64,000 bases of DNA from positions 34,756 through 98,755 of the forward strand of contig JAKAEZ010000004.1 of NCBI GenBank assembly GCA_021819825.1, given 5' to 3'. The stretch comes from Planctomycetota bacterium. Its GTDB lineage: Bacteria > Planctomycetota > Phycisphaerae > WQYP01. Below are positions 16,120 through 51,785 of the stretch, in pieces (position 1 is the stretch's first letter; the number at the start of each line of letters is the position of its first letter). The position numbers and the translations under genes are program-made. The notes beneath the pieces are model-generated. The model ran no database searches. It was not told the DNA's origin and worked only from the letters and a program-made list of their open reading frames with translations.

Positions 16120-16133
16120 TTTTAGAGGGTTAT

Positions 16134-17711: not shown

Positions 17712-17761
17712 AAATATGGTAAATCCAAGATTTGAATTTGAACTTTGAGATATAAATCGGT

Positions 17762-37434: not shown

Positions 37435-37611
37435 GCCAAATGCCAAATACCAAATACCCTCGCTCGTCGTTCGTTGTGACATCGACGTTTCTGATCAGTG
37501 ATCGTTGACCAATGAAGTTCACCCCAGTTTCCCCGTCCCGCTGTAACCCGTAACCACCGCCGGAGGGCGGTTGTGCCGGGATGGCGAAATTGTTCATCAA
37601 GTGCAACCACA
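37435..37611 (-). repeat. Heptamer-array composite element, copy A
   Basis: Head GTTCATCAAGTGCAACCAC (37593-37611), hairpin CCGCCGGAGGGCGG, GTAACC units, TGATC units and CCAAAT[G/A] x3 (37437-37457). It is homologous to copies B-D. Confidence 0.7.
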
Positions 37612-37816
37612 ACCCGCCTGAAAAAGGGCCAATGCTGTTTTGGTGATTGAATCATACCTCGCCAACCGCATGGGGCCAAGCATATCCACACGGATCCACA
37701 CGAATCCGCAAAAACCGGCACCCGTGCGGTGAATCACTGGCGGCCATTTCCGCGCTGGCCCGCCGAACCGATGGATACCACCTTCTCGCGTTCCATAATC
37801 ATCGCAGTAACCTGAC

Positions 37817-38884
37817 TCATTTTAACCCCGCCCGGCGCTTTTTAACCGGGATCCAGATGTCCTTTGCTTTATCATAGCGGTAAGTTTCGGACCCGTATTG
37901 GAAAGTTCGCGGCCCGAGCCCACCACCGATCTGCCAACCATTATTTACCAAAACCGACGGTGCCTTATGCGAAGCACGGTGGCCTTGCGCCAGCACGACG
38001 ACGTATGGAGCCATTCCGCGGCCCTGGGGTCCGGAAAATTCGGACAATCCAACGTCGTTTTGCCCGGAGATAACATCCACGGAAAGGGAAGTCAGTCTGC
38101 TGTGCATTCGCATCGCCCTGAGTTCGATATCGCACGGCTTGCCGCCGAATCCATTATGGATGACCCACGAACGGGACTCTCCCGCTAGAGCTCCACGGAG
38201 TGCCGAACCGAGGCCCGCTTGTAAAGAAGCCAGCGTTGCTTTTTTGCTCCACATTTGAGCCTTCTGGCGGTCGCGAGGAACACCTATGCCAAATCGGTAA
38301 ACATTGGCTAACTCAGACATTGCCGTACCATCTCCTGCGGCGGCTGCCATCCTGTACCACTTTAACGCTTTTGCAGGGTCTTTGGGCACCCCGTCACCCA
38401 ATGAGTAGAGCTGGCCTATTGCGTACATCGCCGGAGCAAAATCCAGGGCTGCAGCGCTCTGGTACCACTTCATCGCCAACGCGTAATTCTGCTTCCGGCC
38501 TCTTCCCCGCTGGTAGCAGATGCCGAGATCATACCTTGCGTTGAGATCCCCGGCGGTGGCAGCCCGTTCGTACCAGTCCGCCGCTTTGCGGTAGTCGGGG
38601 GGAACGCCCCAGCCCTTGTTATACAAATACCCAACGGCGGCCATGGCGTTGGAGTTTCCGCCTGTGGCGGCCTTCAACCAGAGGAGCCTCGCCTTGGGGT
38701 AATCACCCGCCACGAAGGCAGCGTAACCCTGTAGAAAATCTTTCTCGGCAACGGGGCCGCCCTGCGCCCCCATCGCTGGCGGGGATCCCAAGAAGTGGCC
38801 GACAGTTGCAAACGTACTAATCAGAATGAAAAAGACAACTGGGGTGAGAAAGCGGAGGTTGTTCGTTTTGTTGATTTCCCGCAT
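37817..38884 (-). CDS. Secreted Sel1-repeat protein with an unassigned ~150-aa C-terminal domain
   Basis: Signal peptide, then at least four Sel1-type repeats (..A.WY.KAA..G...A...LG..Y..G.GV..D...A..W..). Confidence 0.8.
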   Translation of the reverse strand: MREINKTNNLRFLTPVVFFILISTFATVGHFLGSPPAMGAQGGPVAEKDFLQGYAAFVAGDYPKARLLWLKAATGGNSNAMAAVGYLYNKGWGVPPDYRKAADWYERAATAGDLNARYDLGICYQRGRGRKQNYALAMKWYQSAAALDFAPAMYAIGQLYSLGDGVPKDPAKALKWYRMAAAAGDGTAMSELANVYRFGIGVPRDRQKAQMWSKKATLASLQAGLGSALRGALAGESRSWVIHNGFGGKPCDIELRAMRMHSRLTSLSVDVISGQNDVGLSEFSGPQGRGMAPYVVVLAQGHRASHKAPSVLVNNGWQIGGGLGPRTFQYGSETYRYDKAKDIWIPVKKRRAGLK

Positions 38885-38977
38885 AGGTGTGCTCCTGCCT
38901 GCGGATGTAACATAGTTCTGTTTTCGGACCGTTTAGACCCGTCCCGATATCCGTTGAGACACGATTGTTATCTGAAT

Positions 38978-39200
38978 AGCCGCAGCAAATAATTTCATTG
39001 GCACCGGCGCTACGCTCAAATACCAGGGAGCAGTGATCAATGAACAAATCATTGGAAGCTCGGCGTTTCTGGTCAGTGATCCGTGATCGTTGATCAATGA
39101 AGTTCACCCCAGATTCCCCGCTCCGCTGTAATCCGTAACCTGTCCCCTGTAACCCCGGCCTCGCGCCGTTATGGTGAGATGGTTCGTTCAGTGCAACCAT
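38978..39200 (-). repeat. Heptamer-array composite element, copy B, fused to an Rhs-core remnant
   Basis: Head GTTCGTTCAGTGCAACCAT (39182-39200), GTAACC/TGTCCCC units and TGATC units. At 38978-39010 there is AGCCGCAGCAAATAATTTCATTGGCACC, which encodes GANEIICCGY on the minus strand; this is the motif that precedes the Rhs C-terminal core in the full modules. Confidence 0.7.
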
Positions 39201-39306
39201 AACCCAATCCATAACACGAAACCGACTGTTTCAGCTCTCCACTTTCTACCGGCTGCTCTCTCAGCGTAGCCGCCGCAATCTTTAAAACCGCCGCCATTTC
39301 CATTAG

Positions 39307-40260
39307 CTAACCGCCGTTGCGAAGGTCGGTGTAGTCGCGGACCAGATCCTTGCGGCGAGCCATTTCGCTGGCGTAGCGGTTTCCGAGCCATGCGCGATTT
39401 TCCTGCGCCCATTCTGTTAGCCTTGTTTTTCCGGCGGCCGGGGCATCCACAACGAGCCGGCTTTCCATCAGGCCACGAATTTCGTCGCGCGTGATAATGA
39501 CATCGTGAACGAGCTTTCCGGCCACCGCCGCAAACAGGTATCCAACTTCCGGATTCACGGATATGACCGGACGCGGGCACCCGATGATAGTGCCTATCGC
39601 CTTTACGAGTTCGCGATAGGTAAATGTTTCGGGGCCGATGGCTTGGACAATACGGTTGGTGCTATCGCCCGCGCAGCGTACCGCCAACTCCGCCAGATCA
39701 TCCACGTAAATCGGTTGCAACTTGTATTGGCCATCGCCAAACACCCCAAACACGGGCAGGTGCCGTAACACCCATGCGATATTATTAATCAAAATATCCT
39801 CCCGCCCGAAGATCACAGCAGGCCGCAGGATCGTGAAATCCACCCCGGAATCCGTCAGTGCCTGTTCAACTTGCGCCTTGCCGCGAAAATACTCTAAATC
39901 CGAGTTGATATCCGGATTGGTAATACTCACATGCACAATCCGCCGTACACCGGCGGCCTTGGCGGCGACAAACAGGTTCCGACTGTTTTCGATAGCCTCC
40001 GCAAAGCAGAATGTCCGGCTATTGAAACGCACCCAATAGGTGTTGTAAAGTACATCCACACCCGTCAATGCTTCGGCCAGCTTTTTGGGATCATGCCAGT
40101 TAAACGCTTGCACCTCCACGGACCGGCCAAAAGGATTATGCCGTTGCGGCGAGTTGGTCAAGGTTCGTACCCGCGATCCCTGTGCCAGCAACCGCTTGGT
40201 GATATATTTGCCCGAGTAGCCAAAAGCCCCGGTAACCGCATGCAATAACTTATCGCTCAT
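39307..40260 (-). CDS. NAD(P)H-binding SDR-family (NmrA/epimerase-like) oxidoreductase
   Basis: Rossmann motif VTGAFGYSGKYITKRL at the N-terminus. 317 aa. Confidence 0.75.
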   Translation of the reverse strand: MSDKLLHAVTGAFGYSGKYITKRLLAQGSRVRTLTNSPQRHNPFGRSVEVQAFNWHDPKKLAEALTGVDVLYNTYWVRFNSRTFCFAEAIENSRNLFVAAKAAGVRRIVHVSITNPDINSDLEYFRGKAQVEQALTDSGVDFTILRPAVIFGREDILINNIAWVLRHLPVFGVFGDGQYKLQPIYVDDLAELAVRCAGDSTNRIVQAIGPETFTYRELVKAIGTIIGCPRPVISVNPEVGYLFAAVAGKLVHDVIITRDEIRGLMESRLVVDAPAAGKTRLTEWAQENRAWLGNRYASEMARRKDLVRDYTDLRNGG

Positions 40261-40317
40261 AATTCCAGTCCTATTAAATGCGTGCGATAAACCTTATAAC
40301 ATATGATACCCGAAGCC

Positions 40318-40632
40318 TTAAAAGAAAAAGAGAAACAACGCCAAGCTGAATACTAACACCGGAAGGGCCATGAAAAACCACCAGATATGGATAGGCCACG
40401 GCACACGCTCCCGCCTGCGCCCGAGTATGAAGAGGCAGATAGTACCGAGGTACCACGTCACTAAGTATGTCAAGATGGCCAGAACTTCCGGACCGCTGGC
40501 GTATCCCCCGCGCCGGCCTTGATGCCATTGAATTATCCCCGTGACGAGGGCGGTGGCAAAAGAGATTGTATTTAATAATGCCAGTATATATGTAAGGTTG
40601 CGCATCGTATTATACCTAGAAAAGCCAGCCAC
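40318..40632 (-). CDS. Small multi-pass membrane protein, candidate immunity protein for the 40712-42883 Rhs tip
   Basis: 104 aa with three hydrophobic segments. It is the first ORF downstream of the Rhs module on the same strand. Confidence 0.5.
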   Translation of the reverse strand: MAGFSRYNTMRNLTYILALLNTISFATALVTGIIQWHQGRRGGYASGPEVLAILTYLVTWYLGTICLFILGRRRERVPWPIHIWWFFMALPVLVFSLALFLFFF

Positions 40633-40711
40633 CTACGCAGAGTGGATCGAAACCACCTCGACATCAGGGTTTCATCCACAAGGTTGTCAGGAGCACAGTG
40701 TTGTGTTCATG

Positions 40712-42883
40712 CTAATTAGCAATCGGAGGCCACGGCCAAGGAGGCGGGCCACCAGCTCCATTCGAACACTGGCCATAGCACTTCACCAAGGTTCCGTAGG
40801 GAACGTTTTGCAGGCCATATTTCTCCGTAGCCCATAGGTAGCAAAGAGTGTGAGCCATTTCAGCGCTGGCCCCAAAGCCGTAAAGCTCCGCCAAGCATCC
40901 ACGTACATATTGCGACCATGGACTGTTTCCGGCGCATTTGCAGAAGCACCGCGCGTTGGCTCCCATGTATGTATAGCTGCACGGGTACTTGTTGCACACC
41001 GGTGAGTCGGCAGGGGCCGGCGGAAAATTCGGCGGGGCTGCTGGCCCCCTCGCCGGCTCCGGCGGTATGGGCCACAGCCGCCAACCGCCCGGCGGCGGGA
41101 TCCAGGGATTAGGTGGAGCGGTACCGTTGTTACCCGTTTCGCCCGCCAGCCCCATTGGGTCCACCGCCGCATCCGCCAGTCCCCCCACATACTCATACAA
41201 ATTCACGCCACCGGCGTAGCCGATCGGATCGCGTTGAATCCACCGGCCGAGCACTGGCGAATATGTTCGATTGCGGACATAGTAAAGCTCACTTTCCGGA
41301 TCGAATCGGTAGCCGCAATAGATGACTTCATTGGCACCGTAACTGCTTTGCACATCGTCATCCGTGAACCAGATGCCATCCGCACCCGGCGCGGTGAAGA
41401 TCAGCGTGTTACCGTACGCGTCGGTGTCGTATGTTTCCACGATGCCGCCGCTGGAATTGGTTAATGCCACCGCGCGATACAGCAAGTCCTGCAGCAAATA
41501 GTAACTTCCAGGTTCCAGGTTCTGACTTCCCAATGCTGCGAACGTCGTGAGTTGGATACACTCATCAATATAGGTACCCCAGACATATTGCCGGATCGGC
41601 GTATCGGTTGAGCCGCTGCCACCGAACGGGTTGCGTTCTTCCACCACCTGCCAGCCGCTCCAGATATAATCCGTGGTGCCGTTGGGAACACTGCCCGTCA
41701 GGCCGCCATTGAAGATTGTTTTCCGCACCCGCCGATTCATGGCATCATATAAATATGTCGTAATGATGAGGCCATCGGATACACGGTTGATCTGAATCAA
41801 TCTGTTGAGCGCGTCATAGGCGTAAATCAGGGTGCCGTCATTTTTCAGATTGCCATTGGAGGCACCGGTTGCGCCATCGTATTGGAATGTGACGGCCGGG
41901 CTGGTTCCCACTGTCCGCTGAATGATCTCGTTGAGCTTGTTGTGATTCCTCTGATCCGTTATCGCACTACCGGCCCCTTCGGGCGTATACACACTGCTGG
42001 TCCAATTGCCCAAGGCGTCAAGGTTATAATTCCGGCTTTGATCGGTATTGGGCAACGCAATGGGCGTAGTAACACTGCCGCCGCCGGTGGCTAATATGCC
42101 GCGCTGATAATCCAATAGCCGGTTCATGGAATCATACGAATCATAAAGGCTGCTGCGTTCTTCGGCGTGCAGCGGGCGTTCAAAGAGTTTGTTGGAACTC
42201 TCATCATAAGCACTGGTAAAGCCCACAGTGACATTGGTGCCATTGAAGTACCGCTTGCCGATCATGCGGCCAGAGCCGTCATAACCAAGCTGATCGGTGC
42301 TGATGCTGCCCCAGGCGGGTGTGGGCAGGCCGGATTGAATCGCCGATCTGGTCTGGGCATCGTTCATATTGGAGCACACCAAACCATTACCCAGCGTTAC
42401 CGTAGCTATTCGGTTGGCTCCAAAGTACTGCCAACTGGCGATCACAGCACTCGTAGCTGCTTCAATAATTTGTTGGCGACGAAAGAGTTTGTCGAAGCTG
42501 TTGTTAATCTGCCTACTGTTGGGATACGTAAACTGGCTTACCGGCAATGAGGTAAAGCCGTCATTGGTGACATAGCGTGTGTTGCCGCCATAAACTTGCT
42601 CTTCTTCCACAGTCCTTCCGATGGAATCATAGACCAAGGTTACATCGGCATTGTTTGTGCCGACGGTATCACGGGCAAATGTAGTCTGGGCCAGGCCGTT
42701 ATATTGGAAGCTTTGCGCAGTCGTGCCGCCAATTCCAGATGCGGGAGTAATCGTGATGTTCGTCTTCCGGCCCATACAATCCCAAGTGTCAGAGAATACC
42801 GAACCGTTTTCGTCCGTGTATGTTACCACATCGCCGGCTGAATCGTACACAAATTCAACATAGCCACCGCATCTCCCTTTCAC
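40712..42883 (-). CDS. Rhs/YD-repeat protein module (5'-truncated core + C-terminal variable tip)
   Basis: YD repeats throughout. Rhs core end ..YVWGTYIDECIQL..IYCGYRFDPESELYYVRNRTYSPVLGRWIQRDPIGYAGGVNLYEYVGG..DPMGLAGE, followed by a ~140-aa Pro/Cys-rich tip. The only start is a GTG that overlaps the stop of the upstream ORF. There is no N-terminal delivery domain. Confidence 0.88.
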   Translation of the reverse strand: MKGRCGGYVEFVYDSAGDVVTYTDENGSVFSDTWDCMGRKTNITITPASGIGGTTAQSFQYNGLAQTTFARDTVGTNNADVTLVYDSIGRTVEEEQVYGGNTRYVTNDGFTSLPVSQFTYPNSRQINNSFDKLFRRQQIIEAATSAVIASWQYFGANRIATVTLGNGLVCSNMNDAQTRSAIQSGLPTPAWGSISTDQLGYDGSGRMIGKRYFNGTNVTVGFTSAYDESSNKLFERPLHAEERSSLYDSYDSMNRLLDYQRGILATGGGSVTTPIALPNTDQSRNYNLDALGNWTSSVYTPEGAGSAITDQRNHNKLNEIIQRTVGTSPAVTFQYDGATGASNGNLKNDGTLIYAYDALNRLIQINRVSDGLIITTYLYDAMNRRVRKTIFNGGLTGSVPNGTTDYIWSGWQVVEERNPFGGSGSTDTPIRQYVWGTYIDECIQLTTFAALGSQNLEPGSYYLLQDLLYRAVALTNSSGGIVETYDTDAYGNTLIFTAPGADGIWFTDDDVQSSYGANEVIYCGYRFDPESELYYVRNRTYSPVLGRWIQRDPIGYAGGVNLYEYVGGLADAAVDPMGLAGETGNNGTAPPNPWIPPPGGWRLWPIPPEPARGPAAPPNFPPAPADSPVCNKYPCSYTYMGANARCFCKCAGNSPWSQYVRGCLAELYGFGASAEMAHTLCYLWATEKYGLQNVPYGTLVKCYGQCSNGAGGPPPWPWPPIAN

Positions 42884-43458: not shown

Positions 43459-43614
43459 TTCGTGCGTACCCTTTCCAGATCTCTAAACGCCTCCCTGCCA
43501 TCCATCACGGTGGCAAACATAGCAGCGCAGCTAACGCAAGTGGCTGTCGCAGAACAATACGGAGCCGGAGCTGTACGGTGTTGCCCCGGCCGCACGCCCC
43601 TAAAATTTCCGGAA

Positions 43615-43971
43615 TCAGGGGGGGACCGCATTTTCATCGCCCCCGTGCTCACCAGTCTCGCCGCGGCGATTGCCCGGACCACCTGCCGCGCCCGTCTGCG
43701 ATCCCTCGCCCCTTGCCTCGGTGAAAGCCTGGCCTACTGCTTCGAAAATAACCCCTCGAAACCATGCTCTCCACCACCTGAATATTTTCCAGATTAGAAA
43801 CGCGCATGCGGCCGTGACAAGGAACGGCAGAACGTCAACCAGCCAAAAGGCGTATGGGGTTGGATGCCGGATAGTAACGGAGCTTAGCTGAGGCGGCAAT
43901 ACCGATACCGCTCCGACCGGCACCGCCGCGATGCTAGACAGCTGGGAAATCGCATGTAATATGGGGCCCAT
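43615..43971 (-). CDS. Small membrane protein, candidate immunity protein for the orphan tip at 43983-44646
   Basis: 118 aa with two or three hydrophobic segments. It starts 11 nt after the orphan tip stop. Confidence 0.5.
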   Translation of the reverse strand: MGPILHAISQLSSIAAVPVGAVSVLPPQLSSVTIRHPTPYAFWLVDVLPFLVTAACAFLIWKIFRWWRAWFRGVIFEAVGQAFTEARGEGSQTGAAGGPGNRRGETGEHGGDENAVPP

Positions 43972-43982
43972 TGGTCATCCTC

Positions 43983-44840
43983 CTAGTTGCAGCAATTGCA
44001 CCGTACCTGGAAAGTGTCTCCGTGGAAAATGGACCCCACCACCTTGGTGAATCCAAATTTCCAAACGCCTATTGTATCCAATATTTTGACCTCGTAGATC
44101 AGTGTATACGTGATTATCTGGGTGCCATCCGCGCAGGGGCTGGCGGTCACAATCGGGGTGCAGGGAATGACGACGGCGGAAAAGTGGCCGCCGGGAACAG
44201 TCGTGAATCCCGTCCAATAGTGTGCCACTATCTGGGCGCTGGGGCTTGGGCACACTTTATTCTCACGGACCACGACGTGAAAGGTTGCCCAGAAGCCTGC
44301 GTGGAACGTGTCTGTGGCGGTGACAATCGCAAGGCCCGACGCATCCGCCCCCGCCACCGCTCGGCCACCGACATACTCATACAAATTAATTCCACCGGCG
44401 TAGCCGATCGGATCGCGTTGCAGCACCCGAGTCGCCACTCCTGTGGCCTTTCGGGATTTCGGCTCCTGCCTCAACACCGTGCCGGGAATCGAGCTGTAGG
44501 TGCGATTGCGGACGTAATACAGTTCCGCTTCCGGATCGTGTTGATTAAGCGGGGTTGCCAAGCAGCGACATTGTGGCGAAGCGTCATCCAATCCGCGAAA
44601 TCCCGGTCTGTCGGGATATCCGCAGATGATGATTTCGTTGGCACTGGCGCTTCGCTCAATGACCAATGAGTAATGATCAATGAATAGAACGGGGAAGCCG
44701 TATTTTCGATCCGTGATCAGTCTTCCTTGATCAGTGGAAATGTCTCCTAACTCCCAACTCCTGCATGCTCGTCCAACCCCTGTCCCCTGTAACCCCGGCC
44801 TCGCGGCGGGATCGTGAAATTTTGCGTTCAGTGCGACCAT
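43983..44840 (-). CDS. Orphan Rhs C-terminal fragment (core end + ~125-aa tip); the 5' part of the ORF is the heptamer element
   Basis: ..SANEIIICGY[26-aa insert]DPEAELYYVRNRTYS[insert]LQRDPIGYAGGINLYEYVGGRAVAGADASGL, then a unique tip. Rhs homology starts near 44646. Upstream of that point the ORF is read through repeat copy C. Confidence 0.6.
   Translation of the reverse strand: MVALNAKFHDPAARPGLQGTGVGRACRSWELGDISTDQGRLITDRKYGFPVLFIDHYSLVIERSASANEIIICGYPDRPGFRGLDDASPQCRCLATPLNQHDPEAELYYVRNRTYSSIPGTVLRQEPKSRKATGVATRVLQRDPIGYAGGINLYEYVGGRAVAGADASGLAIVTATDTFHAGFWATFHVVVRENKVCPSPSAQIVAHYWTGFTTVPGGHFSAVVIPCTPIVTASPCADGTQIITYTLIYEVKILDTIGVWKFGFTKVVGSIFHGDTFQVRCNCCN
44647..44840 (-). repeat. Heptamer-array composite element, copy C
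   Basis: Head TTGCGTTCAGTGCGACCAT (44822-44840), TGTCCCC/GTAACCC units, CTCCTAA/CTCCCAA/CTCCTGC (44744-44764), TGATC units and CAATGA units. 38 nt (GCGCTTCGCTCAATGACCAATGAGTAATGATCAATGAA) are identical to copy D. Confidence 0.7.
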
Positions 44841-45063
44841 CAGAGCAACTCCGCAATCGACAAATGCTAGCCACAGTTTACCCCGCCGGACATGTTCTCA
44901 CAACGCTCCGAAATCGGGAGGGTGGCTACACCCTTAAATTGCACCGAAACCCGAAAACCGGTCGCGTCCCCGTTTCACTTTCTGGCCCGGGTAGTCGGGA
45001 TATGGAAGGTGATTGCTTGACCGCCGGTTGCGTGGCCCGTTAAGGGCCTCGCTTCCCCGTGCA

Positions 45064-46491
45064 TCAATATTGGGTGGCATTGTATATATGGCCGCACCGC
45101 CGCGATAGGCGTTGAAAGCGCGACGCTTTAAATTGTCTTTCAAAGTCACCATGCCAGTTCCCGAAACTTGAGTCGGCCAAAAGGAATTTCACTATTCTAC
45201 CGCCGCGGCGCGGCCGCAGGCAATCGCCAAAGTTCCGCACCCAGCGGGCCGCCGGTGATCGCGGCCCGGCCATCGGGCGATACCGCGATCGATGTGCAGC
45301 CGCCGATGATGTCGGGGGATCTCCAGACCATTCGCCCGTTGCTGGTATCCACCGCACAAAAAAACCGATACCGCCTGCAATGTTACTTGTAAGCGCAGCA
45401 ATTACACATTTAGGATTTCCGCTGTTAGCGAGTTGAACGATGTACCATTGATCGGCGTACTCAAAGTGAATGGAGATGTGGCGAACGAGCGCCCCGTTTT
45501 GGTCACTGAACGCAGAGATACCGGGCACCACGCCAATCGTCCCAGTCGCGGCGAGAAAATCGTTCCCGCCAGGCGTCTTGAGCAGGGATCCGGTGAAAGG
45601 CATGTGATTTGTTGCACCTATCTGCTTGCGGGGCCGACGTCGGTGGCCGCTGAATATGAATATTTGGGCACCGCCCTCCACAGCTACCCGGTGGGCGCTG
45701 ATGTAGGCCAGGCCGGCGGGTACCCGGAAGCGCCGTGAAAAGTAGCGTGCGATTGGGGCGGGCGTTGCCGAGTCCGTACGCCATATTACGCACACCGGAC
45801 CGGGAGTGGTGAGGGAATCATAACCCACCGCCAGTTCTTTTCCAGAGGTTGAAAAACTTAGCGCAGTGGCGGGATTATTCCAATCCGTGCGCAATTGGAT
45901 GGGGTTGCTTCTGGCATTCCCGCTCCACAGGGCCACAAAATTTTTGTTCCCCAGCCTCGTTGATGTAGCGACAAGGTGAGTTTCTGGCGAGGTTGCACCG
46001 CAAACACCGAATACGGGATTTGACCAAGACTGTGGAGTTGGCAACTGGCTGATAGAAACCGTGGGTGTCCGTAGATTGGCAGCGTCAGGCCAAAATGGCT
46101 CCCGTGGATGGGACTGTAAAATGCTTAAAAATTTTTGCGACTGCCATGCGTCGTCGAGTCGGAATAGTTTTGATCCTTGGGGACGGGAGGCGAGCACGGG
46201 GCCGGAACTCAACGCAAATACCGCCAATGACGGCGATAAAAATCCGATTGCGCCCGGGCTGAACCAATCGTTTTTATCTCCCTTTGATATCCTTAAATGG
46301 GGCGACGCAGTTCGCGCTGCCATCGCTGCGAGATCGCCTCGATTCCACCACGAGTAAAGAAGAAGTGGTACCGGCGGCTTCGGTGGTGCATGAGTTGAGT
46401 TCCCGTTGCGGTGACAGCCAGCGATGGTTAATAGCACCACGGAAACAGGCAACGCGTTTCGCCACGCTGTGAGCGATTGTTTTATTCTCAT
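45064..46491 (-). CDS. Lipoprotein (possible beta-propeller), candidate immunity protein for the 46488-48905 Rhs tip
   Basis: MRIKQSLTAWRNALPVSVVLLTIAGC contains a lipobox. The ATG at 46491 overlaps the Rhs TGA (ATGA at 46488-46491); the track start is 46506. Confidence 0.55.
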   Translation of the reverse strand: MRIKQSLTAWRNALPVSVVLLTIAGCHRNGNSTHAPPKPPVPLLLYSWWNRGDLAAMAARTASPHLRISKGDKNDWFSPGAIGFLSPSLAVFALSSGPVLASRPQGSKLFRLDDAWQSQKFLSILQSHPREPFWPDAANLRTPTVSISQLPTPQSWSNPVFGVCGATSPETHLVATSTRLGNKNFVALWSGNARSNPIQLRTDWNNPATALSFSTSGKELAVGYDSLTTPGPVCVIWRTDSATPAPIARYFSRRFRVPAGLAYISAHRVAVEGGAQIFIFSGHRRRPRKQIGATNHMPFTGSLLKTPGGNDFLAATGTIGVVPGISAFSDQNGALVRHISIHFEYADQWYIVQLANSGNPKCVIAALTSNIAGGIGFFVRWIPATGEWSGDPPTSSAAAHRSRYRPMAGPRSPAARWVRNFGDCLRPRRGGRIVKFLLADSSFGNWHGDFERQFKASRFQRLSRRCGHIYNATQY

Positions 46492-48905
46492 TTGGCACCA
46501 CAGCACTTTTGGAACCCGTAATTAATTCGGGCATTGAGGCCTAAAAGAAGTCGCAACAACCACCCGCCCTCGTCACCGGTTACAAACAGGCAGCCGGCAG
46601 TGCAACGGATGGCGCATTGGGAAAGCCCGAGTTGCTCGGCCATGACACTCTGGTAGCAGCATTCTGGGCTGCAAAGCCCCTTTTTACGGCATGTACCATC
46701 CGCCACTTGCCACGCGGGTGTGTTCCCAAGGCTCCAATGGTGGGAGAGGCATCGGTTGGCACATCCAACAAAACAGGCCTGTGTAGGGATTCCGAACGGG
46801 TGGACCACTGGAACTGGTGGCAAGGGAAGCCACCCCGGCGGTGGAGAAAGCCTTTGCACCTCCGTGCAGAGAAAGCGGGAGACATCCGCAGCACAACACG
46901 ACCATGGCTTATTGGGGCAGCTACAGACCGCGGATTGGGATTGGCACTTTCGGGCGTAACGGGAGGTCGCCCGCTCACAGGTCTGTTGGTAGGGGACTAA
47001 CCATGGTGGCGTTCGCAATTCTAGCGGGCCCGCAACAGCGCCATTGTTACCGCTCGTATCCACCTCCGCCACCGCTCGTCCCCCCACATATTCATACACA
47101 TTCACGCCGCCCGCATAGCCGATTGGATCGCGCTGCAGCCACCGGCCAACCGAAATGCCTTCGGCGTCCGTCAGGAACATGCGGTTACGAACGTGGTACA
47201 GCCGCGTTTCCGGATCGTATCGGTAACCGCAGAAGATCATGTCGTTGGCACCGTAGGTGAAGCCTGACCCGACATCGTCATCGGTGAACCACACGCCGTC
47301 GGGGCCGGGGCCGGTATAGATGATCGTCTGGCCGTAAGCATCAGTATCATAAGCCTCGACGATATTTCCGCTCGAATTGGTCAACGCCACCGCGCGATAC
47401 AGCAAATCCTGTAACAGGTAATAGGTTCCCGGTGCAAGATTTCCGCCGCCCAATGTTGCAAGCGTCGTGAGTTGGATGCACTCGTCAATGTTGAGGCCTC
47501 CAAACCTCCATATCTGCGGCCGAAATCCCGTCGGGGCCGAGGCCCCCGTGCGCGCCGCTGCGCCGGGATACGTGCCCCAGATATATTGCCGAATCGGCGT
47601 GTCAGTGGAACCTGTTCCACCAAACGGATTGCGTTCCTCCATTACCTGATTGCCCAAGTAAATACAGTCGGTTGTGCCGTTGGCAATTCCCCCGCCGAAT
47701 CCGCCGTTACTTATCGTCTTGCGGATTCGTCGGTTGAACGCGTCAAAGACGTAGCTGCCCAGAACCGTTGCACCGCCCGCCATATTCACTTGGATCTGCC
47801 GATTCATCGCATCGAATTGATAAGTACGGAAGCTGTCATCAGCCAGGTTGCCGTTAGAGGCTCCCGGCGAGCCGTCGTAGGTGAATGGCCTGCCACCGAA
47901 ATTGGTGATCTGGTTAAGCCGATTGTGGTTGCGCTGCTGGACCGAGGGAGTGTCGCCCATAGGCGTGTAGGTCAGCGATCGCCAATTTCCCATGCCGTCG
48001 AGGTTCCATGCCTCCTGTGCGTTGACACTCGGCAACGTGGTTGGCGTAGCGACACTTCCTCCGCCGGCATTCTGATAACCTCCGGTGCTGTTCAACGTCC
48101 CTCTCTTATATTGCAACAGCCTGTTGATGGAATCATAACCGGGTATTGGTGAGGCGATGTTACCGTTGTTGTCCACTGGCTGATACAGGAAACTTCTGCT
48201 TTCCGCGTGCAACGCCCGTTCATAGAATTTGTTATCCGCCGGATCAAAGGCGGTGGTGTTGCCCACTACGGACGTGGTGTTGTTGTAGGCAAAAGTGCTG
48301 GAATTGATGCCGCCGAAAAGGTACCGTTTGGCAATCATGCGGCCAGAGCCGTCATAACCCAATCGGTCACTGGAGGGTGTGCCCCACGCCGGATTGGGTA
48401 CCGTGCCGAACTGCACCGCACTGTGGGTTCTGGCATTGTTGAGCATGGTTTGAATGATGCCATTGCCAAGGGCAACTTCCGCAGTTCTCTGTGGCCCGAA
48501 GAATTGCCAACTGGCGATCACGGCACTGGTGGCCGCTTCGATAATCTGTTGGCGGCGGTACAGGGCGTCATAGCTACTGTTGATCTGCCGCGCGTTGGGG
48601 AAGGTAAACTGGCTAACTGGAAGTGATGTAAATGCGTCATTGGTGACATACCGGCTGTTGCCGCCGTAGGCTTGAGCTTCTTCCACGGTTCGCTGGATGG
48701 AATCGTAGACCAGTGTGACATCAGCATTGTTGCCGCTGGCGGTATCGCGGGCAAAGGTGGTCTGCGCCAGGCCGTTGTATTGGAAGCTTTGCGCGGTGGT
48801 GCCCCCAATTCCTGATGCGGGAGCAATCGCTACATCTGTCTTCCGGCCCATACAATCCCAAGTGTTAGAGAATACCGAACCGTTTTCGTCCGTGTATGTT
48901 ACCAC
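46488..48905 (-). CDS. Rhs/YD-repeat protein module (5'-truncated core + Cys-rich C-terminal tip)
   Basis: Paralog of 40712-42883, with the same YD core and core end ..RWLQRDPIGYAGGVNVYEYVGGRAVAEVDTSG, followed by a ~190-aa tip with about 19 Cys. YD-like codons continue upstream of the GTG as far as a TGA at 48973-48975, which is the stop of the preceding membrane-protein ORF. Confidence 0.88.
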   Translation of the reverse strand: MVTYTDENGSVFSNTWDCMGRKTDVAIAPASGIGGTTAQSFQYNGLAQTTFARDTASGNNADVTLVYDSIQRTVEEAQAYGGNSRYVTNDAFTSLPVSQFTFPNARQINSSYDALYRRQQIIEAATSAVIASWQFFGPQRTAEVALGNGIIQTMLNNARTHSAVQFGTVPNPAWGTPSSDRLGYDGSGRMIAKRYLFGGINSSTFAYNNTTSVVGNTTAFDPADNKFYERALHAESRSFLYQPVDNNGNIASPIPGYDSINRLLQYKRGTLNSTGGYQNAGGGSVATPTTLPSVNAQEAWNLDGMGNWRSLTYTPMGDTPSVQQRNHNRLNQITNFGGRPFTYDGSPGASNGNLADDSFRTYQFDAMNRQIQVNMAGGATVLGSYVFDAFNRRIRKTISNGGFGGGIANGTTDCIYLGNQVMEERNPFGGTGSTDTPIRQYIWGTYPGAAARTGASAPTGFRPQIWRFGGLNIDECIQLTTLATLGGGNLAPGTYYLLQDLLYRAVALTNSSGNIVEAYDTDAYGQTIIYTGPGPDGVWFTDDDVGSGFTYGANDMIFCGYRYDPETRLYHVRNRMFLTDAEGISVGRWLQRDPIGYAGGVNVYEYVGGRAVAEVDTSGNNGAVAGPLELRTPPWLVPYQQTCERATSRYARKCQSQSAVCSCPNKPWSCCAADVSRFLCTEVQRLSPPPGWLPLPPVPVVHPFGIPTQACFVGCANRCLSHHWSLGNTPAWQVADGTCRKKGLCSPECCYQSVMAEQLGLSQCAIRCTAGCLFVTGDEGGWLLRLLLGLNARINYGFQKCCGAK

Positions 48906-48974
48906 ATCACTGGCTAAATCATAAAAAAATTCCCTGCTTGATCCATCCTGAAATTGGGTAACCGCAGTAATGGC

Positions 48975-49313
48975 TCACTCTTCCCGCTTATTGCCGCCCC
49001 CGTGGCGACGGTGCCAAGTCCGTATCACTTGCCGCGTTCTGATGAGCATATCCGGATTCCGCGCCAAAAGGATCCAAATCGCGGCCACGGTGATGTTTAA
49101 GGACTGGGCGAGGTCTGAGTATTGGTGGCTATATCGGAGCTCGGTCACGAAGATAACCAAGACTACCAAGGTCGCCTCGGCAAGGCGAATTTCCCGGAGC
49201 TTCGCTGTGTCCCTTCGCTTGATTGCTGGCACACGGTAAAATAGCAGTTCGTTCGTCGGTGTCTGAAGGATCACGAACGCGAGCATGCCAACAAGCCACG
49301 GCTGAATCTGCAT
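48975..49313 (-). CDS. Small membrane protein, candidate immunity protein for the orphan tip at 49404-50027
   Basis: 112 aa with hydrophobic segments (LVGMLAFVILQ, LVVLVIFV, ITVAAIWILLA). It is the first ORF downstream of the orphan tip. Confidence 0.45.
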   Translation of the reverse strand: MQIQPWLVGMLAFVILQTPTNELLFYRVPAIKRRDTAKLREIRLAEATLVVLVIFVTELRYSHQYSDLAQSLNITVAAIWILLARNPDMLIRTRQVIRTWHRRHGGGNKREE

Positions 49314-49403
49314 TGTAAAACCTCCTTATCTAAGGGCGTTCCGCCAAGGGCGTGCCAGCCCGACGGTCGCAGGTTTCCGCCGGCACAGAACGAGGTCGGG
49401 CCG

Positions 49404-50027
49404 CTACTTAGTCCCGCCCCCTGAAAGGCTCCCGCATGGGGGATAGGGCGAGGCACTCGCCGGGTCCGTATTGCCGAATGTCGTGATTTGGCACCTGCAG
49501 TGGCCTGCCAGCCTCACTATCCCCAAGAACGCGACCGGCCTGCCTTGGCCTCGCCTGGGTCCGGGAAGCACTCCAGTGCCGGAAACGCAAATTGTGCCCG
49601 CCGGGGGATTGCAGGGTTTACAGGGGCAGGGGGGAGTGCAAATTTCCGAGATTCCGTAGAGCAGCGAAGCAAGACAACCGGCCAGCACGAGCAGGTCGCC
49701 GCTGCGGAGGGCGCTTGCTACACATATCGCGTAAAGATCCAGCCACTGGGACACGCATTTCTGGTATGCCGCCTCGCTAGCAAGGCCTGTCGGGTCCAGG
49801 GCAGTCACCGCCCGTCCTCCCACATACTCATACAAATTCACGCCACCGGCGTAGCCGATCGGAGCGCGTTGCAGCACCCGAGTCGCGACTCCTGTGGCCT
49901 GTTGAAATTTCGGCTCCTGCCTCAACACCGTGCCGGGGATCGAGTTGTAGGATTGCACGGATACGCCGCTGTGGCGGCCTTTGCCGTTCAGTTTGGTTGC
50001 CGAAGTTGTTTCGCTCAACGCGACCAA
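49404..50027 (-). CDS. Orphan Rhs C-terminal fragment (very short core remnant + Cys-rich ~125-aa tip)
   Basis: ..YNSIPGTVLRQEPKFQQATGVATRVLQRAPIGYAGGVNLYEYVGGRAVTALDPTGL, then a tip with about 11 Cys. It starts with TTG inside a copy of the 19-nt head motif (50008-50027) and translates as MVALSE. Confidence 0.55.
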   Translation of the reverse strand: MVALSETTSATKLNGKGRHSGVSVQSYNSIPGTVLRQEPKFQQATGVATRVLQRAPIGYAGGVNLYEYVGGRAVTALDPTGLASEAAYQKCVSQWLDLYAICVASALRSGDLLVLAGCLASLLYGISEICTPPCPCKPCNPPAGTICVSGTGVLPGPRRGQGRPVAFLGIVRLAGHCRCQITTFGNTDPASASPYPPCGSLSGGGTK

Positions 50028-50154
50028 GAAACAATTCCTTTCCTTTATCCGAAGAGCACGCGTTAACTATACCGCATGGCACAACATCAGCAAACTCGCC
50101 GGTAGACTACAACATTGCGTAACTGGCCAAGACGCCGATTCCCCCACCGTTAAA

Positions 50155-50586
50155 TTAGCTACTCGCGTCTCCGCTGCACTTCCTCGGGAGGACGACCGCC
50201 AATCCGAAGGCGAACGCCGCCACGACGAAAAGGAAATCCAGGAATGTAGCGACTGCGAACCCCGCTGGTGCGGTCCGGCCAAACACGATCCCTACCGTCT
50301 CCCTACCGGAAAAATACAATGCCAATGCCAATGCGATCAACGTTCGAATAAGGTACGCACGTCGCCCGCGGGCGGCCGTCCCCGCGACGGCGATCGCGTG
50401 GGGCCGTAGGAGTCGCCTTCCGGCAACGAGAATCTGCCATACCGCCAGCGGATTTATCAGCACACTCGACGCGAACCAGAATCGTTCGCCCAGGCGGAAT
50501 GGTGCCAGTGCAACCAGCGTGCCGGAATAGACCAATACACACGCCAGAACTCCGCCGCAAAGCCTGTTCCAGAGACGCAATCGCAC
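50155..50586 (-). CDS. Multi-pass membrane protein, orphan immunity candidate
   Basis: 143 aa with four hydrophobic segments. It lies downstream of the degenerate Rhs remnant attached to repeat copy D. Confidence 0.45.
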   Translation of the reverse strand: MRLRLWNRLCGGVLACVLVYSGTLVALAPFRLGERFWFASSVLINPLAVWQILVAGRRLLRPHAIAVAGTAARGRRAYLIRTLIALALALYFSGRETVGIVFGRTAPAGFAVATFLDFLFVVAAFAFGLAVVLPRKCSGDASS

Positions 50587-50761
50587 TCGAGTTACTCCTT
50601 ATCGCAAGCTATACTCCGCTCGGCCCCTGGCGGTACATTGCGATGGCCTGAAAACCCAATAAAGGGCCGATTTTGTGGAAGAATCTACCAGTGCAAACGT
50701 ATCACGGCTGGCCGAGTCGCGTATAATAAAAAACTTACTTCGACATATCCCCCGCCGGGAT

Positions 50762-50987
50762 AGCCGCAGAAGATGGTTTCATTGGCACAAGCGCTTCGCT
50801 CAATGACCAATGAGTAATGATCAATGAACAAATCATTGGATGTTCGGCGTTTCTGATCAGTGATCCGTGATCGTTGATCAATGGTGTTCACCCCCGATTC
50901 CCCCTGTAACCCGTAACCTGTAACCTGTGACCTCCGCCCGCGGGCGGTTGTGCTGGAATGGCGAAATTGTTCGTTCAACGCAACCAT
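50762..50987 (-). repeat. Heptamer-array composite element, copy D, fused to a degenerate Rhs-core remnant
   Basis: Head GTTCGTTCAACGCAACCAT (50969-50987) and palindrome CCGCCCGCGGGCGG (50934-50947). Arrays are GTAACCC/GTAACCT/GTAACCT/GTGACCT (50906-50933), TGATCAG/TGATCCG/TGATCGT/TGATCAA (50854-50883) and CAATGAC/CAATGAG/TAATGAT/CAATGAA (50801-50828). TAGCCGCAGAAGATGGTTTCATTGGCAC encodes ANETIFCGY on the minus strand, and no Rhs tip follows it. Confidence 0.75.
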
Positions 50988-51780: not shown

Positions 51781-51785
51781 TTCTC

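What the first reader, a model, noticed from the sequence alone, without database searches (positions are those of the whole stretch)
37435..50987. Multi-copy composite element made of blocks of tandem heptanucleotide repeats with a conserved 19-nt head, sitting at Rhs cassette boundaries
Seen in sequence: there are four co-oriented copies (A 37435-37611, B 38978-39200, C 44647-44840, D 50762-50987) and a head-only copy (50008-50027). Each ends in a conserved head, GTTCGTTCA[A/G][C/T]GC[A/G]ACCAT, written on the plus strand. Leftwards from the head come a short GC hairpin (for example the perfect palindrome CCGCCCGCGGGCGG at 50934-50947) and then successive blocks of 2-5 tandem 7-mers. Each block uses a different unit: GTAACCN, TGATCNN, CAATGAN, CCAAATA, CTCCTAA. 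The number of blocks and units differs between copies. Copies C and D share 38 identical nt and then diverge. In B, C and D the array is fused directly to the ~30 nt that encode GANE(I/T)I.CGY, which is exactly where homology to the Rhs core resumes. Each short orphan tip or remnant is therefore preceded by one element. On the minus strand the head reads ATGGTTGC.CTGAACGAA (MVALNE), and in B, C and D one frame stays open through the whole array into the Rhs remnant. Established knowledge: tandem heptamer blocks of this style are known as STRR sequences in heterocystous cyanobacteria, and I know of no description linking them to Rhs loci. Inference: this is either a non-coding repeat that marks or promotes cassette recombination, or a portable translational start/leader for orphan toxins.
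Basis: partly seen in the sequence, partly recalled or inferred. Interest (0 to 1): 0.75.

Follow-up and report, generated by a model that had tools for sequence, protein, structure and literature searches.

The report
Promoter-plus-leader cassette heading orphan Rhs toxins
The repeated "element" is real, but it is the shared front end of a family of small Rhs-type toxin genes in an uncultured planctomycete: a promoter, a start codon and a roughly 65-residue translated leader whose DNA happens to be built from 7-base tandem repeats.

Summary
There are four co-oriented copies plus a head-only copy, 7-nt arrays, a 38-nt block shared by C and D, and fusion exactly at GANE..CGY.

The element is protein-coding on the minus strand. 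The "head" is ATG GTN GCN YTG AAY GAA (MVALNE), and its degenerate positions are synonymous sites. In related Planctomycetota/Phycisphaerales MAGs and metagenomes, about 15 of 17 Rhs-fused loci keep the head ATG in frame, despite indels of 1, 5, 10 and 29 codons. Only the leader frame shows purifying selection (pN/pS 0.42, no stops; the other frames give 1.04 and 1.29, with 9 and 46 stops).

A profile of the three window leaders finds 88 protein clusters. All are 500 aa or shorter and nearly all carry the leader at the N-terminus. 51 of 62 scanned carry the RHS repeat-associated core domain, joined to the leader at many different points. A sigma-70-like promoter sits at a fixed 32-41 nt upstream of the start.

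The 7-nt periodicity exceeds what the peptide requires. Similar arrays fill intergenic DNA in this lineage, and a 5-unit GGTTACA array breaks the frame at two loci.

Verdict: a portable promoter, start and leader cassette for orphan Rhs toxin and immunity modules. It is a new variant of a known kind. What the leader peptide does is unknown.

The parts
51025..51054 (-). Promoter-like site of copy D: TTGGCA, 18 nt, TAGAAT. The -10 hexamer ends 37 nt before the ATG.
   Evidence: Best sigma-70 match in 37000-52000 (10 of 12). The same motif sits at the same distance in L005, L007, L010, L012 and L017.
50778..50987 (-). Copy D leader ORF: head ATG at 50987, 70 codons ending ...LFIDHYSLVIERSACANE.
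   Evidence: leader HMM score 115 bits.
50685..50777 (-). Copy D stub: TIFCGY of the Rhs tip, then unrelated sequence to the stop. The toxin is missing.
   Evidence: Translation; alignment with L004 and L010 loses homology after CGYP.
50155..50586 (-). 143-aa ORF downstream of stub D, preceded by AAGGAG. Candidate orphan immunity gene (by position only).
   Evidence: no Pfam family. Assignment is inferred from position.
50066..50094 (-). Weaker promoter-like site of the head-only copy E: TTTGCT, 17 nt, TATAGT, 38 nt before the TTG start.
   Evidence: 8 of 12, at the family-typical distance.
49404..50027 (-). A type-2 head (LVALSETTSATKLNGK, TTG start) is fused directly to the Rhs tip at YNSIPGT. 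DPTGL lies at 49796-49782, followed by a C-terminal toxin. 207 aa in all.
   Evidence: The head type matches P0047, P0051 and P0043.
48975..49313 (-). 112-aa ORF after E. Candidate immunity gene.
   Evidence: Position only.
46488..48905 (-). N-truncated Rhs fragment (805 aa) with its own C-terminal toxin. It contains the GAND..CGY..DPIGYAGG core end and has no leader.
44875..44903 (-). Promoter-like site of copy C: TTGTGA, 17 nt, TAAACT, 34 nt before the ATG.
   Evidence: 8 of 12. The same position is seen in L009b.
44634..44840 (-). Copy C leader ORF (69 codons, MVALNAKFHD...LFIDHYSLVIERSASANE).
   Evidence: 105 bits. The gene was called with this start in the public assembly.
43983..44633 (-). 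Copy C Rhs tip plus toxin. RHS-associated core domain end, DASGL at 44345-44331, then a roughly 115-aa beta-rich C-terminal domain. This is the only complete ATG-headed leader-toxin gene in the window.
   Evidence: TIGR03696 match at residues 138-170; AF2 strands at residues 221-280 with low confidence.
43615..43971 (-). 118-aa ORF after C. Candidate immunity gene.
   Evidence: Position only.
40712..42883 (-). Second N-truncated Rhs fragment (723 aa). Its toxin also occurs behind a D-type leader in another assembly (P0009).
   Evidence: The last 140 aa are 133 of 140 identical to P0009.
39201..39310 (-). Upstream region of copy B, of the 'U2' type shared with L013-L016 and L018. No good sigma-70 match.
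   Evidence: Alignment; promoter scan gives 5 of 12.
38994..39200 (-). Copy B leader ORF (69 codons, MVALNEPSHH...LFIDHCSLVFERSAGANE). In the FIDH..ERSA block it differs from C and D mainly by synonymous changes.
   Evidence: 131 bits.
38817..38993 (-). Copy B stub: IICCGYSDNNRVSTDIGTGLNGPKTELCYIR of the tip, then a junction to AGGAG plus the Sel1 gene start. The toxin is missing.
   Evidence: homologous to the P0002/L004 tip.
37817..38884 (-). Sel1-repeat protein (355 aa) directly downstream of stub B. Candidate immunity gene now served by the cassette.
   Evidence: Pfam Sel1 6.8e-40. L012 has a leader-toxin followed by a Sel1 protein.
37435..37679 (-). Copy A, a decayed cassette. Promoter-like TTGGCC, 17 nt, TATGAT at 37679-37651. 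GTG head at 37610. A 17-nt deletion in the GGTTAC array region and 7 nt missing from the GATCA array relative to the other copies, leader split over two frames, not joined to any Rhs sequence.
   Evidence: (two weak HMM hits in different frames).

Best explanation
Each copy is the constant 5' part of a small, self-contained polymorphic-toxin gene of an uncultured Planctomycetota (Phycisphaerales-like) lineage.

Reading the minus strand, a cassette has four parts:
(i) About 100-130 nt of conserved upstream DNA. In most subtypes this carries a sigma-70-like promoter (TTGGCA, 17-18 nt, TAGAAT) whose -10 ends 32-41 nt before the start.
(ii) The start codon and the conserved head MVALNEQFHH.
(iii) A 55-90-codon, low-complexity, probably disordered leader ending in ...TDQRSRITDQKxGxSDDLFIDHCSLVIERSA.
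(iv) An in-frame junction to a truncated Rhs/YD protein. The junction is usually at GANE..CGY, about 50-80 codons before the DPxGL end of the RHS-associated core. A variable toxin and an immunity gene follow.

The cassette therefore gives orphan Rhs tips their own transcription, their own start codon and a common N-terminal peptide, so they do not depend on a full-length rhs gene. This step is inferred from sequence; it has not been shown experimentally.

In this window C and E are complete leader-toxin genes. B and D have lost the toxin and now sit directly in front of immunity-like genes, so they probably still drive them (inferred). A is decayed.

The leader's DNA is made of blocks of tandem heptamers of the same style as the intergenic repeat arrays of this lineage. 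The most likely history is that the leader was recruited from, and is still being remodelled by, such repeat DNA through slippage and gene conversion, while selection keeps the frame open and conserves the head and the C-terminal block. What the leader peptide does is unknown. It could be an export or packaging signal, or a plain start and spacer.
For: Frame conservation. The distance from the head ATG to the 3' block is 156 (five copies), 159, 186 and 243 nt, all multiples of 3 with open ORFs. Leader proteins align with in-frame indels of 1, 5, 10 and 29 aa. P0034 carries three extra GGTTACA units, which add 7 aa in frame.

Selection. On 14 DNA copies of the 84-nt 3' block, pN/pS is 0.42 with 0 stops in the leader frame, against 1.04 (9 stops) and 1.29 (46 stops) in the other two frames. 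The FIDH..ERS codons give 0.27. Across the whole leader dN/dS is about 0.3-0.8, compared with 0.1-0.4 for the adjacent Rhs tip. Head codons 2-5 vary almost only synonymously (GTT/GTC, GCA/GCG, CTG/TTG, AAC/AAT).

Family. The HMM search finds 88 clusters, 35 of them at 1e-10 or better. The leader is at or near residue 1 of proteins no longer than 497 aa. 51 of 62 scanned carry TIGR03696 Rhs_assc_core, and no Pfam or NCBIfam model covers the leader. At least six different fusion points are seen: |GANE, |DAYGNT, |DAHGSTR, |RNRNY, |QGMTLD and GG|LTG.

Promoter. 11 of 24 heads have a sigma-70 match of 9 of 12 or better (background 4.6%), and 7 of 24 have 10 of 12 or better (background 0.6%). The site is at a constant distance across unrelated upstream types. 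The D promoter is the best site in the 15-kb region scanned.

Distribution and context. All genome hits are Planctomycetota or Phycisphaerales MAGs. The cassette occurs in Rhs arrays (L012, L019, L023) and also stands alone next to a tRNA (L020). The same toxin appears behind a leader (P0009) and at the end of the 723-aa Rhs fragment in the window.
Against: No expression data exist, so the promoter and translation are inferred.

The middle third of the leader shows little amino-acid constraint: variable columns by codon position are 36, 35 and 39 of 65.

The lag-7 periodicity (0.37-0.47) exceeds what synonymous-codon resampling allows (0.28-0.34; between 0 and 8 of 1000 resamples reach the observed value). 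A DNA-level process or constraint therefore also acts on the sequence.

Heads of the U2 type occur with early stops (MVALNEQFR*; ORFs of 9, 28, 37 and 53 aa) in front of non-Rhs DNA, and U2 lacks a recognisable promoter. Leader-like modules also fill a 940-nt intergenic region with no Rhs nearby (L022).

Two loci (L004 and L025-27) are out of frame.

AlphaFold2 gives no confident fold (mean pLDDT 47.6), so no structural or functional assignment of the leader is possible.

Many copies are related by descent and gene conversion, so the frame counts are not fully independent.
Confidence: 0.7

Rival explanations
1. The element is a non-coding dispersed repeat (STRR-like array, MITE or recombination joint). 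On this view it is primarily a DNA-level repeat that seeds or marks rearrangements at Rhs cassette boundaries, and the open frame is incidental or secondary.
For: The 7-nt periodicity is stronger than the peptide needs. The same modules occur in intergenic DNA (L011 3125-3380, L022 2967-3905). The 3' block occurs in inverted orientation after stop codons (L011, L022, L025). Copies have sharp 5' boundaries and many different 3' junctions. A central patch was replaced between the otherwise identical loci L004 and L010. TIR-like inverted repeats of 26-27 nt flank the cassette in L025 and L005.
Against: Purifying selection is frame-specific and the leader frame has no stops. Head variation is synonymous. 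Indels are in frame. 88 protein clusters have the leader at the N-terminus. The window copies, L010 and L012 have no TIRs. No target-site duplications were seen. Folding energy is not significant and there is no Rfam match.
Confidence: 0.12
2. The element is a phase-variable switch. Slipped-strand mispairing in the heptamer arrays, especially GGTTACA, adds or removes 7 nt and toggles the head ATG in or out of frame with the toxin. The result would be ON/OFF expression of individual orphan toxins.
For: The repeat unit is not a multiple of 3. Array sizes of 4, 5 and 7 units are seen: 4 and 7 are in frame, 5 is out of frame. The only defect in L004 and in the P0028 locus (7 contigs, including NCBI GCA_027436295.1) is a fifth GGTTACA unit, and everything downstream is intact. 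Several database proteins start inside the leader just after the array or stop just after it (P0002, P0026, P0028, P0031, P0032, P0045, P0063, P0080). Heptanucleotide tracts are mentioned in a Haemophilus HMW1A phase-variation paper (PMC8262952, listed; not read).
Against: The arrays are short (5 units or fewer, rarely 7) and imperfect, so slippage should be slow. The two 5-unit loci share an identical 5' segment, which suggests one allele spread by gene conversion and not repeated switching. All three sequenced contigs of the P0028 locus have the same 5 units. No case was found of the same locus differing only by one unit.
Confidence: 0.12
3. The element is decaying debris. On this view the copies are non-functional remnants of repeated recombination in an Rhs graveyard, and frame conservation only reflects recent common descent.
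For: In the window A is decayed, and B and D are stubs without toxin. There is no full-length rhs in the window. Many copies in JGI contigs are truncated.
Against: Copies diverged to pS 0.3-0.5 still keep the frame and show pN/pS below 0.5. The family spans several MAGs and many toxins, with independent fusion points. The promoter position is conserved across upstream types.
Confidence: 0.06

Closest known systems
Orphan rhs-CT/rhsI modules, in particular the Salmonella Typhimurium orphan expressed from internal promoters and a CTG start (PMC7043789, read)
   Same: Both are 3' fragments of the rhs core with a variable toxin and an immunity gene. Both are arranged in arrays, and both are expressed independently of the full-length delivery gene from their own promoter and start codon. 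Toxins are exchanged through the shared core end (P0009 against the window's 723-aa fragment).
   Different: In Salmonella the promoter and start lie inside rhs-homologous sequence. Here they are supplied by a separate conserved cassette with no rhs homology. That cassette adds a 65-100-aa leader, is reused at at least six junction points and in stand-alone genes (L020), and was never found on a protein longer than 497 aa.
Polymorphic toxin architecture: N-terminal trafficking module, repeats, C-terminal toxin, with standalone cassettes (Zhang et al. 2012, PMC3482391)
   Same: A conserved N-terminal module is shared by proteins with many different C-terminal toxins (one WHH nuclease, one SitA6-like, most unknown), and immunity genes lie downstream.
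   Different: The leader matches none of the Pfam or NCBIfam models. It has no signal-peptide or transmembrane character by eye and no confident fold. No link to any secretion system could be tested.
STRR (short tandemly repeated repetitive) heptanucleotide sequences of heterocystous cyanobacteria (from my own knowledge; the papers only mention the term)
   Same: Both consist of blocks of 2-7 tandem 7-mers, with different units in adjacent blocks. Such arrays are abundant in intergenic DNA of the lineage (window 51000-51785, L011, L022). The unit TGACCAA at 51390-51424 resembles STRR2 TTGGTCA read on the other strand (from memory).
   Different: The host is a planctomycete, not a cyanobacterium, and HIP1 is not enriched. 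The arrays in the finding are translated and under purifying selection.
Simple-sequence-repeat contingency loci (for example the Haemophilus HMW1A phase-variation paper, PMC8262952, which appeared in the heptanucleotide search; not read)
   Same: A 7-nt unit lies between the start codon and the body of a surface or toxin gene, and a one-unit change breaks the frame (L004, L025).
   Different: The tracts are short and imperfect, and no within-locus length polymorphism was observed.

Membership tests
Orphan Rhs toxin/immunity module | Contains the 3' end of the conserved Rhs core (RHS repeat-associated core, ending PxxxxDPxGL) followed by a variable C-terminal domain | tested here: met
   C: TIGR03696 match at residues 138-170, and DASGL. 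E: DPTGL at 49796-49782. 51 of 62 family members hit TIGR03696. B and D retain only the first 6-40 residues of the tip.
Orphan Rhs toxin/immunity module | Lies downstream of a full-length rhs gene in the same orientation | tested here: not met
   The window holds only two N-truncated fragments (805 and 723 aa). L019 and L023 do have 1110-aa and 839-aa Rhs genes upstream. L020 has none.
Orphan Rhs toxin/immunity module | Small cognate immunity gene immediately downstream | tested here: inconclusive
   Small ORFs follow every copy (118, 112 and 143 aa, and the Sel1 protein), but they have no family assignment except Sel1. Immunity function is not testable here.
Polymorphic-toxin N-terminal trafficking domain | A conserved N-terminal module shared by proteins with unrelated C-terminal toxins | tested here: met
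   88 clusters, with diverse C-termini.
Polymorphic-toxin N-terminal trafficking domain | Demonstrable link to a secretion or packaging apparatus | not testable with these tools
   No complete genome was available. No secretion genes were found next to the loci read.
STRR (cyanobacterial heptanucleotide repeats) | Tandem arrays of 7-nt units | tested here: met
   TRF; lag-7 autocorrelation 0.37-0.47.
STRR (cyanobacterial heptanucleotide repeats) | Non-coding (intergenic) location | tested here: not met
   The arrays of the finding are inside an ORF under frame-specific purifying selection. Other arrays of the lineage are intergenic.
STRR (cyanobacterial heptanucleotide repeats) | Host is a (heterocystous) cyanobacterium | tested here: not met
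   All genome hits are Planctomycetota or Phycisphaerales MAGs. HIP1 occurs 3 times against 2.8 expected.
MITE / REP-type mobile repeat | Terminal inverted repeats or subterminal hairpins, with target-site duplication | tested here: not met
   No inverted repeats flank the window copies, L010 or L012. Only L025 and L005 have 26-27-nt inverted CAATGA blocks. Folding z-scores are -0.2 to -1.2.
Phase-variable contingency locus | Repeat-number polymorphism at one locus that switches the reading frame | tested here: inconclusive
   5-unit alleles are out of frame at two loci, while 4 and 7 units are in frame. No single locus was seen in two states. Read-level data are not available.
Known structured RNA | Match to an Rfam covariance model or a significant folding energy | tested here: not met
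   No Rfam hit at E of 1 or below in 37000-52000 or in six loci. Folding z-score for the D transcript is -0.34.

The most novel reading that the evidence does not exclude
The cassette is a lineage-specific 'orphan activator'. It is a compact promoter, start and leader unit, assembled from STRR-like heptanucleotide repeat DNA, that can be grafted onto any truncated Rhs/YD fragment to turn it into an independently expressed toxin. Its leader would serve as a previously undescribed export or packaging signal, and its heptamer arrays would provide slippage-based ON/OFF switching of individual toxins. It would also be a traceable case of a coding leader born from intergenic tandem repeats while still carrying their DNA-level periodicity.
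Probability: 0.15. Interest if true: 0.7.

Novelty: new variant of a known kind. Interest (0 to 1): 0.5.

Why it matters
Orphan Rhs and CdiA toxin cassettes are usually described as silent spare parts that need recombination into a full-length gene. The alternative view is leaky expression from cryptic internal signals.

Here a whole bacterial lineage equips its orphans with a dedicated, reusable front end: a promoter, an ATG and a conserved leader peptide. The same front end is retained in front of immunity genes after the toxin has been lost. If this is confirmed experimentally, three things follow.
- It would show that orphan modules can be a regulated, autonomous arsenal, or an immunity-expression device.
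- It would define a new N-terminal module for polymorphic toxins in Planctomycetota, whose secretion routes are poorly known.
- It would offer a clean example of coding sequence that is simultaneously shaped by protein-level selection and by tandem-repeat dynamics at the DNA level.

It also documents STRR-like heptanucleotide arrays outside cyanobacteria.

Tried and rejected
Cyanobacterial origin: rejected. HIP1 is not enriched and the relatives are Planctomycetota.

Known RNA or riboswitch leader: rejected. No Rfam hits and no excess folding energy for the D transcript, the GC hairpin or the tip inserts.

MITE with terminal inverted repeats: rejected for the window copies.

Plasmid, phage or viral origin: no matches.

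Homology of the leader to Rhs core sequence upstream of GANE: none at the DNA level.

Known protein domain in the leader: none in Pfam or NCBIfam.

Structure-based assignment: AlphaFold2 confidence was too low (pLDDT 47.6), so no fold search was run.

First word-indexed protein search with the D leader: only 2 hits. The exhaustive HMM search was needed.

RAYT/IS200-like ORF after the L018 copy: a 28-aa fragment gave no Pfam hit, so this was not pursued.

Sel1 proteins after B and after L012a: only 39% identical over repeats. This is weak evidence that they are the same immunity family.

Dam/GATC regulation idea: GATC sites cluster in the leader, but GATC is generally over-represented in the window (317 against 244). 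Not pursued.

Full report
1. WHAT IS IN THE WINDOW

The window matches, at the loci checked, a 62.5-kb ENA metagenome contig (ERZ27237538 k141_1726804). The genes between 52.7 kb and 34.4 kb all lie on the minus strand. In that orientation the order is:
- a 314-aa ORF;
- a repeat-rich intergenic region (51785-50988);
- copy D with a short Rhs stub;
- a 143-aa ORF;
- the "head-only" copy E, heading a 207-aa Rhs-tip toxin;
- a 112-aa ORF;
- an N-truncated Rhs fragment of 805 aa;
- a 480-aa ORF;
- copy C, heading a 285-aa Rhs-tip toxin;
- ORFs of 118 and 192 aa;
- a second N-truncated Rhs fragment of 723 aa;
- a 104-aa ORF;
- an NAD-dependent epimerase gene;
- copy B with a stub;
- a Sel1-repeat gene;
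- copy A;
- a GGDEF/EAL gene.
There is no full-length rhs gene in the window.

2. THE OBSERVATION

- The 19-mer head occurs 4 times with up to 3 mismatches, against 0.06 expected.
- The four copies align.
- TRF finds the named heptamer arrays in A, C and D.
- Period 7 dominates the tandem repeats in all related DNA I collected (56 of about 126 arrays).
- The palindrome, the 38-nt block shared by C and D, and the exact onset of Rhs homology at GGTGCCAATGAA (GANE) are all present.

Three corrections apply. Conservation continues 100-130 nt upstream of the head. The hairpin is not a general or energetically significant feature. The head-only copy is a second head subtype with a TTG start.

3. RELATIVES

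A 32-nt pattern from the 3' block found 8 loci among 185,579 species genomes. All are in three Planctomycetota/Phycisphaerales MAGs, five of them in one MAG. The head pattern found 6 loci in JGI metagenomes.

A profile of the three window leaders, searched exhaustively against 1.84 billion protein representatives, found 88 clusters, 35 at E of 1e-10 or better. Most come from ENA assemblies of one ERZ2723xxxx accession series, plus two NCBI MAGs. Nothing was found in plasmids, phages or viral contigs. The family is real, multi-copy and lineage-restricted.

4. CODING OR NOT

On the minus strand the head reads ATG GTN GCN YTG AAY GAA CAA TTT CAC. Across 13 distinct heads, codons 2-5 vary almost only synonymously.

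The distance from the ATG to the conserved 3' block is 156, 159, 186 or 243 nt in eight of nine copies, all multiples of three with open frames. The leader proteins align with in-frame indels of 1, 5, 10 and 29 residues. One database member has three extra GGTTACA units, which add 21 nt or 7 aa (P0034).

A three-frame test on 14 DNA copies of the 84-nt 3' block gives these results:
- leader frame: pN/pS 0.42, no stops;
- second frame: pN/pS 1.04, 9 stops;
- third frame: pN/pS 1.29, 46 stops;
- the twelve FIDHYSLVIERS codons alone: 0.27.
Copy B differs from C and D in that block mostly by synonymous changes.

Whole-leader dN/dS is about 0.3-0.8, against 0.1-0.4 for the adjacent Rhs tip. The leader is therefore translated. 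Its head and C-terminal block are constrained, and its middle is only weakly constrained.

5. WHAT THE LEADER IS ATTACHED TO

In the 88 clusters the leader sits at or near residue 1 of proteins of 42-497 aa, and no full-length Rhs carries it. 51 of 62 members scanned contain the RHS repeat-associated core domain (TIGR03696). No Pfam or NCBIfam model covers the leader.

The junction after ...IERSA varies. It is followed by:
- GANE..CGY (the commonest);
- DAYGNTLIF, about 30 residues further upstream in the core;
- DAHGSTRLVTD (another YD family);
- RNRNYDPSLGRWINQDP;
- QGMTLD..GLYYARNRNY;
- GG|LTGNIPNETTDY;
- a few non-Rhs C-termini.

Loci occur inside Rhs arrays (L012, L019, L023) and as a stand-alone gene beside a tRNA (L020). 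The toxin at the end of the window's 723-aa fragment is found behind a D-type leader elsewhere, with 133 of 140 residues identical. This shows exchange through the shared core end.

6. PROMOTER

The best sigma-70-like site in 37000-52000 is TTGGCA, 18 nt, TAGAAT at 51054-51025, upstream of D.

Across 24 heads, 11 have a match of 9 of 12 or better (background 4.6% of random 120-nt windows) and 7 have 10 of 12 or better (background 0.6%). The -10 hexamer ends 32-41 nt before the start codon in 16 copies, even though they belong to unrelated upstream sequence types.

In the window, A, C, D and E have such a site at 40, 34, 37 and 38 nt. B belongs to a different upstream type (U2) that has no recognisable site. 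The upstream homology has a sharp 5' edge, and beyond it the contexts differ.

7. THE DNA-LEVEL REPEAT ASPECT

The lag-7 autocorrelation of leader DNA is 0.37-0.47. Shuffles give 0.25, Rhs core DNA gives 0.24, and resampling synonymous codons while keeping the peptide gives 0.28-0.34, with 0 to 8 of 1000 resamples reaching the observed value. Codon choice therefore preserves the heptamer pattern.

The same repeat modules (GATCA-, CAATGA/TCATTG-, AGGAGTT- and GGTTACA-type) fill intergenic regions next to housekeeping genes in related MAGs (L011 3125-3380; L022 2967-3905) and upstream of D.

Loci L004 and L010 are identical in their flanks and downstream tip but carry different central leader patches, which indicates gene conversion. 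Heads of the U2 type also occur with early stop codons in front of non-Rhs DNA and between truncated Rhs fragments.

I read this as a coding leader that was recruited from, and continues to be remodelled by, the tandem-repeat DNA typical of this lineage.

8. FRAME-BREAKING ALLELES

L004 and the P0028 locus (L025-27; seven contigs, including GCA_027436295.1) carry five GGTTACA units instead of four. That is their only defect. The head frame then runs into a TGA, and gene callers start the protein inside the leader.

This is what slipped-strand phase variation would look like. However, both loci share the same 5' segment, and no locus was seen in two states. I rate phase variation as possible but unproven.

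9. STATE OF THE FIVE WINDOW COPIES

- C is a complete gene.
- E is complete with a TTG start and a shortened leader.
- B keeps the leader plus 40 tip residues and then joins AGGAG plus the start of the Sel1 gene.
- D keeps the leader plus 6 tip residues and is followed by AAGGAG plus a 143-aa ORF.
- A is frame-shifted and unattached.

B and D suggest that cassettes are kept as drivers of immunity genes after the toxin is lost. This is an inference.

10. WHAT THE LEADER PEPTIDE DOES

This is unknown. The peptide is hydrophilic and arginine-rich, with no signal-peptide character by eye. AlphaFold2 with a 62-sequence alignment gives mean pLDDT 47.6 and no confident structure for the leader. An export or packaging signal, or a simple start and spacer, both remain open.

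11. COMPARISON WITH WHAT IS KNOWN

The closest functional precedent is the Salmonella orphan Rhs toxin, which is expressed from internal promoters and a CTG start (PMC7043789). The general framework is the polymorphic toxin system (PMC3482391).

The difference here is a separate, reusable cassette with no rhs homology, carrying its own conserved leader and used at many junctions. The STRR resemblance holds for the repeat style only (membership fails on host and on non-coding location). My literature searches found no description of this leader or of heptanucleotide arrays in Planctomycetes; that negative result is limited to the open-access and preprint full texts searched.

VERDICT

The finding is a new variant of a known kind, of moderate interest.

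Noticed in passing
window 51000-51785 (also L011 3125-3380, L022 2967-3905): The intergenic region is packed with successive short tandem arrays of 7-, 9- and 10-nt units (TACTGACCAA x3.5, CTGAATG, CTTGAGCAA, CAACTTGCC, GCACTCTACT and others). Comparable arrays sit between housekeeping genes in related Phycisphaerales MAGs. They look like a lineage-wide, STRR-like feature of intergenic DNA outside cyanobacteria.
   Followed up: partly
window 44492-44421 (C) and 49943-49872 (E): A 24-residue in-frame segment, SIPGTVLRQEPKSR(K/Q)ATGVATRVL, replaces the conserved PVLGRW(I/L) of the RHS-associated core. The related segment SVLRQEPKSRLSAGVAHRE occupies the same site in a different tip subfamily (P0040, P0043, P0048, P0076). 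13 of 92 held proteins carry it. It has no hairpin potential. Its origin is unexplained.
   Followed up: partly
window 38975-38928 (B); C has a different insert, PDRPGFRGLDDASPQCRCLATPLNQHD, at 44615-44535; also L004, L007, L010, L014: A second in-frame insert lies between CGY and PE(T/S)ELYY of the tip: (P/S)DNNRVSTDIGTGLNG, replacing RFD. It is present in many leader-type tips and absent from the long Rhs fragments.
   Followed up: no
window 48905-46488 and 42883-40712; 43458-42880: The two long Rhs fragments are truncated at the same core position (..DVVTYTDENGSVFS.TWDCMGRKT). The second overlaps the stop of a 192-aa ORF by ATGA, which suggests translational coupling. They look like duplicated large orphan units without a leader.
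   Followed up: no
window 39078-39095, 50858-50880, 44708-44737: Each leader holds 3-5 GATC sites spaced 7 nt apart (the GATCA heptamer block). GATC is also over-represented in the whole window (317 against 244 +/- 15 expected). A methylation-related role was not examined.
   Followed up: no
window 44647-44690, 50793-50835 (+ strand): On the plus strand the complement of the 3' block reads CAATGAC CAATGAG TAATGAT CAATGAA TAG, with a TGA every 7 nt. That places stop codons in all three frames. The same block in this orientation sits right at or after stop codons of upstream genes in L011, L022 and L025.
   Followed up: partly
L011 4100-4140 and 4385-4425: Inverted copies of the 3' block flank a 245-nt YD-repeat fragment next to a suf operon. 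The forward copy continues in frame into a different YD protein (ERSAS|TTTAYG). This could be an inversion or rearrangement scar.
   Followed up: partly
L018 1-90 (- strand), L013 5-1020, L009 4140-5524, L025 2686-3133: Several cassette copies lie next to transposase genes (DDE_Tnp_1, an IS3-like gene, IS110) or, in L018, next to an ORF start MARKARYCPGGYVYHVLKRS that I could not assign. In L024 the leader's 5' half is replaced by sequence that in L009 follows an IS3-like transposase gene.
   Followed up: partly
window 9825-13345 and 14674-21034: There is a large serine recombinase (Resolvase plus Recombinase domains) next to a KaiC-like ATPase, and further on an error-prone DnaE2-type polymerase (17762-21034) preceded by two ORFs. 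This is a possible mobile element plus mutagenesis cassette. No link to the finding was seen.
   Followed up: no
window 45064-46506: The 480-aa ORF between the 805-aa Rhs fragment and copy C has a lipoprotein-like N-terminus (..LLTIAGC) and no Pfam family. It overlaps the Rhs fragment's 3' end by 19 nt and may be its immunity protein.
   Followed up: no
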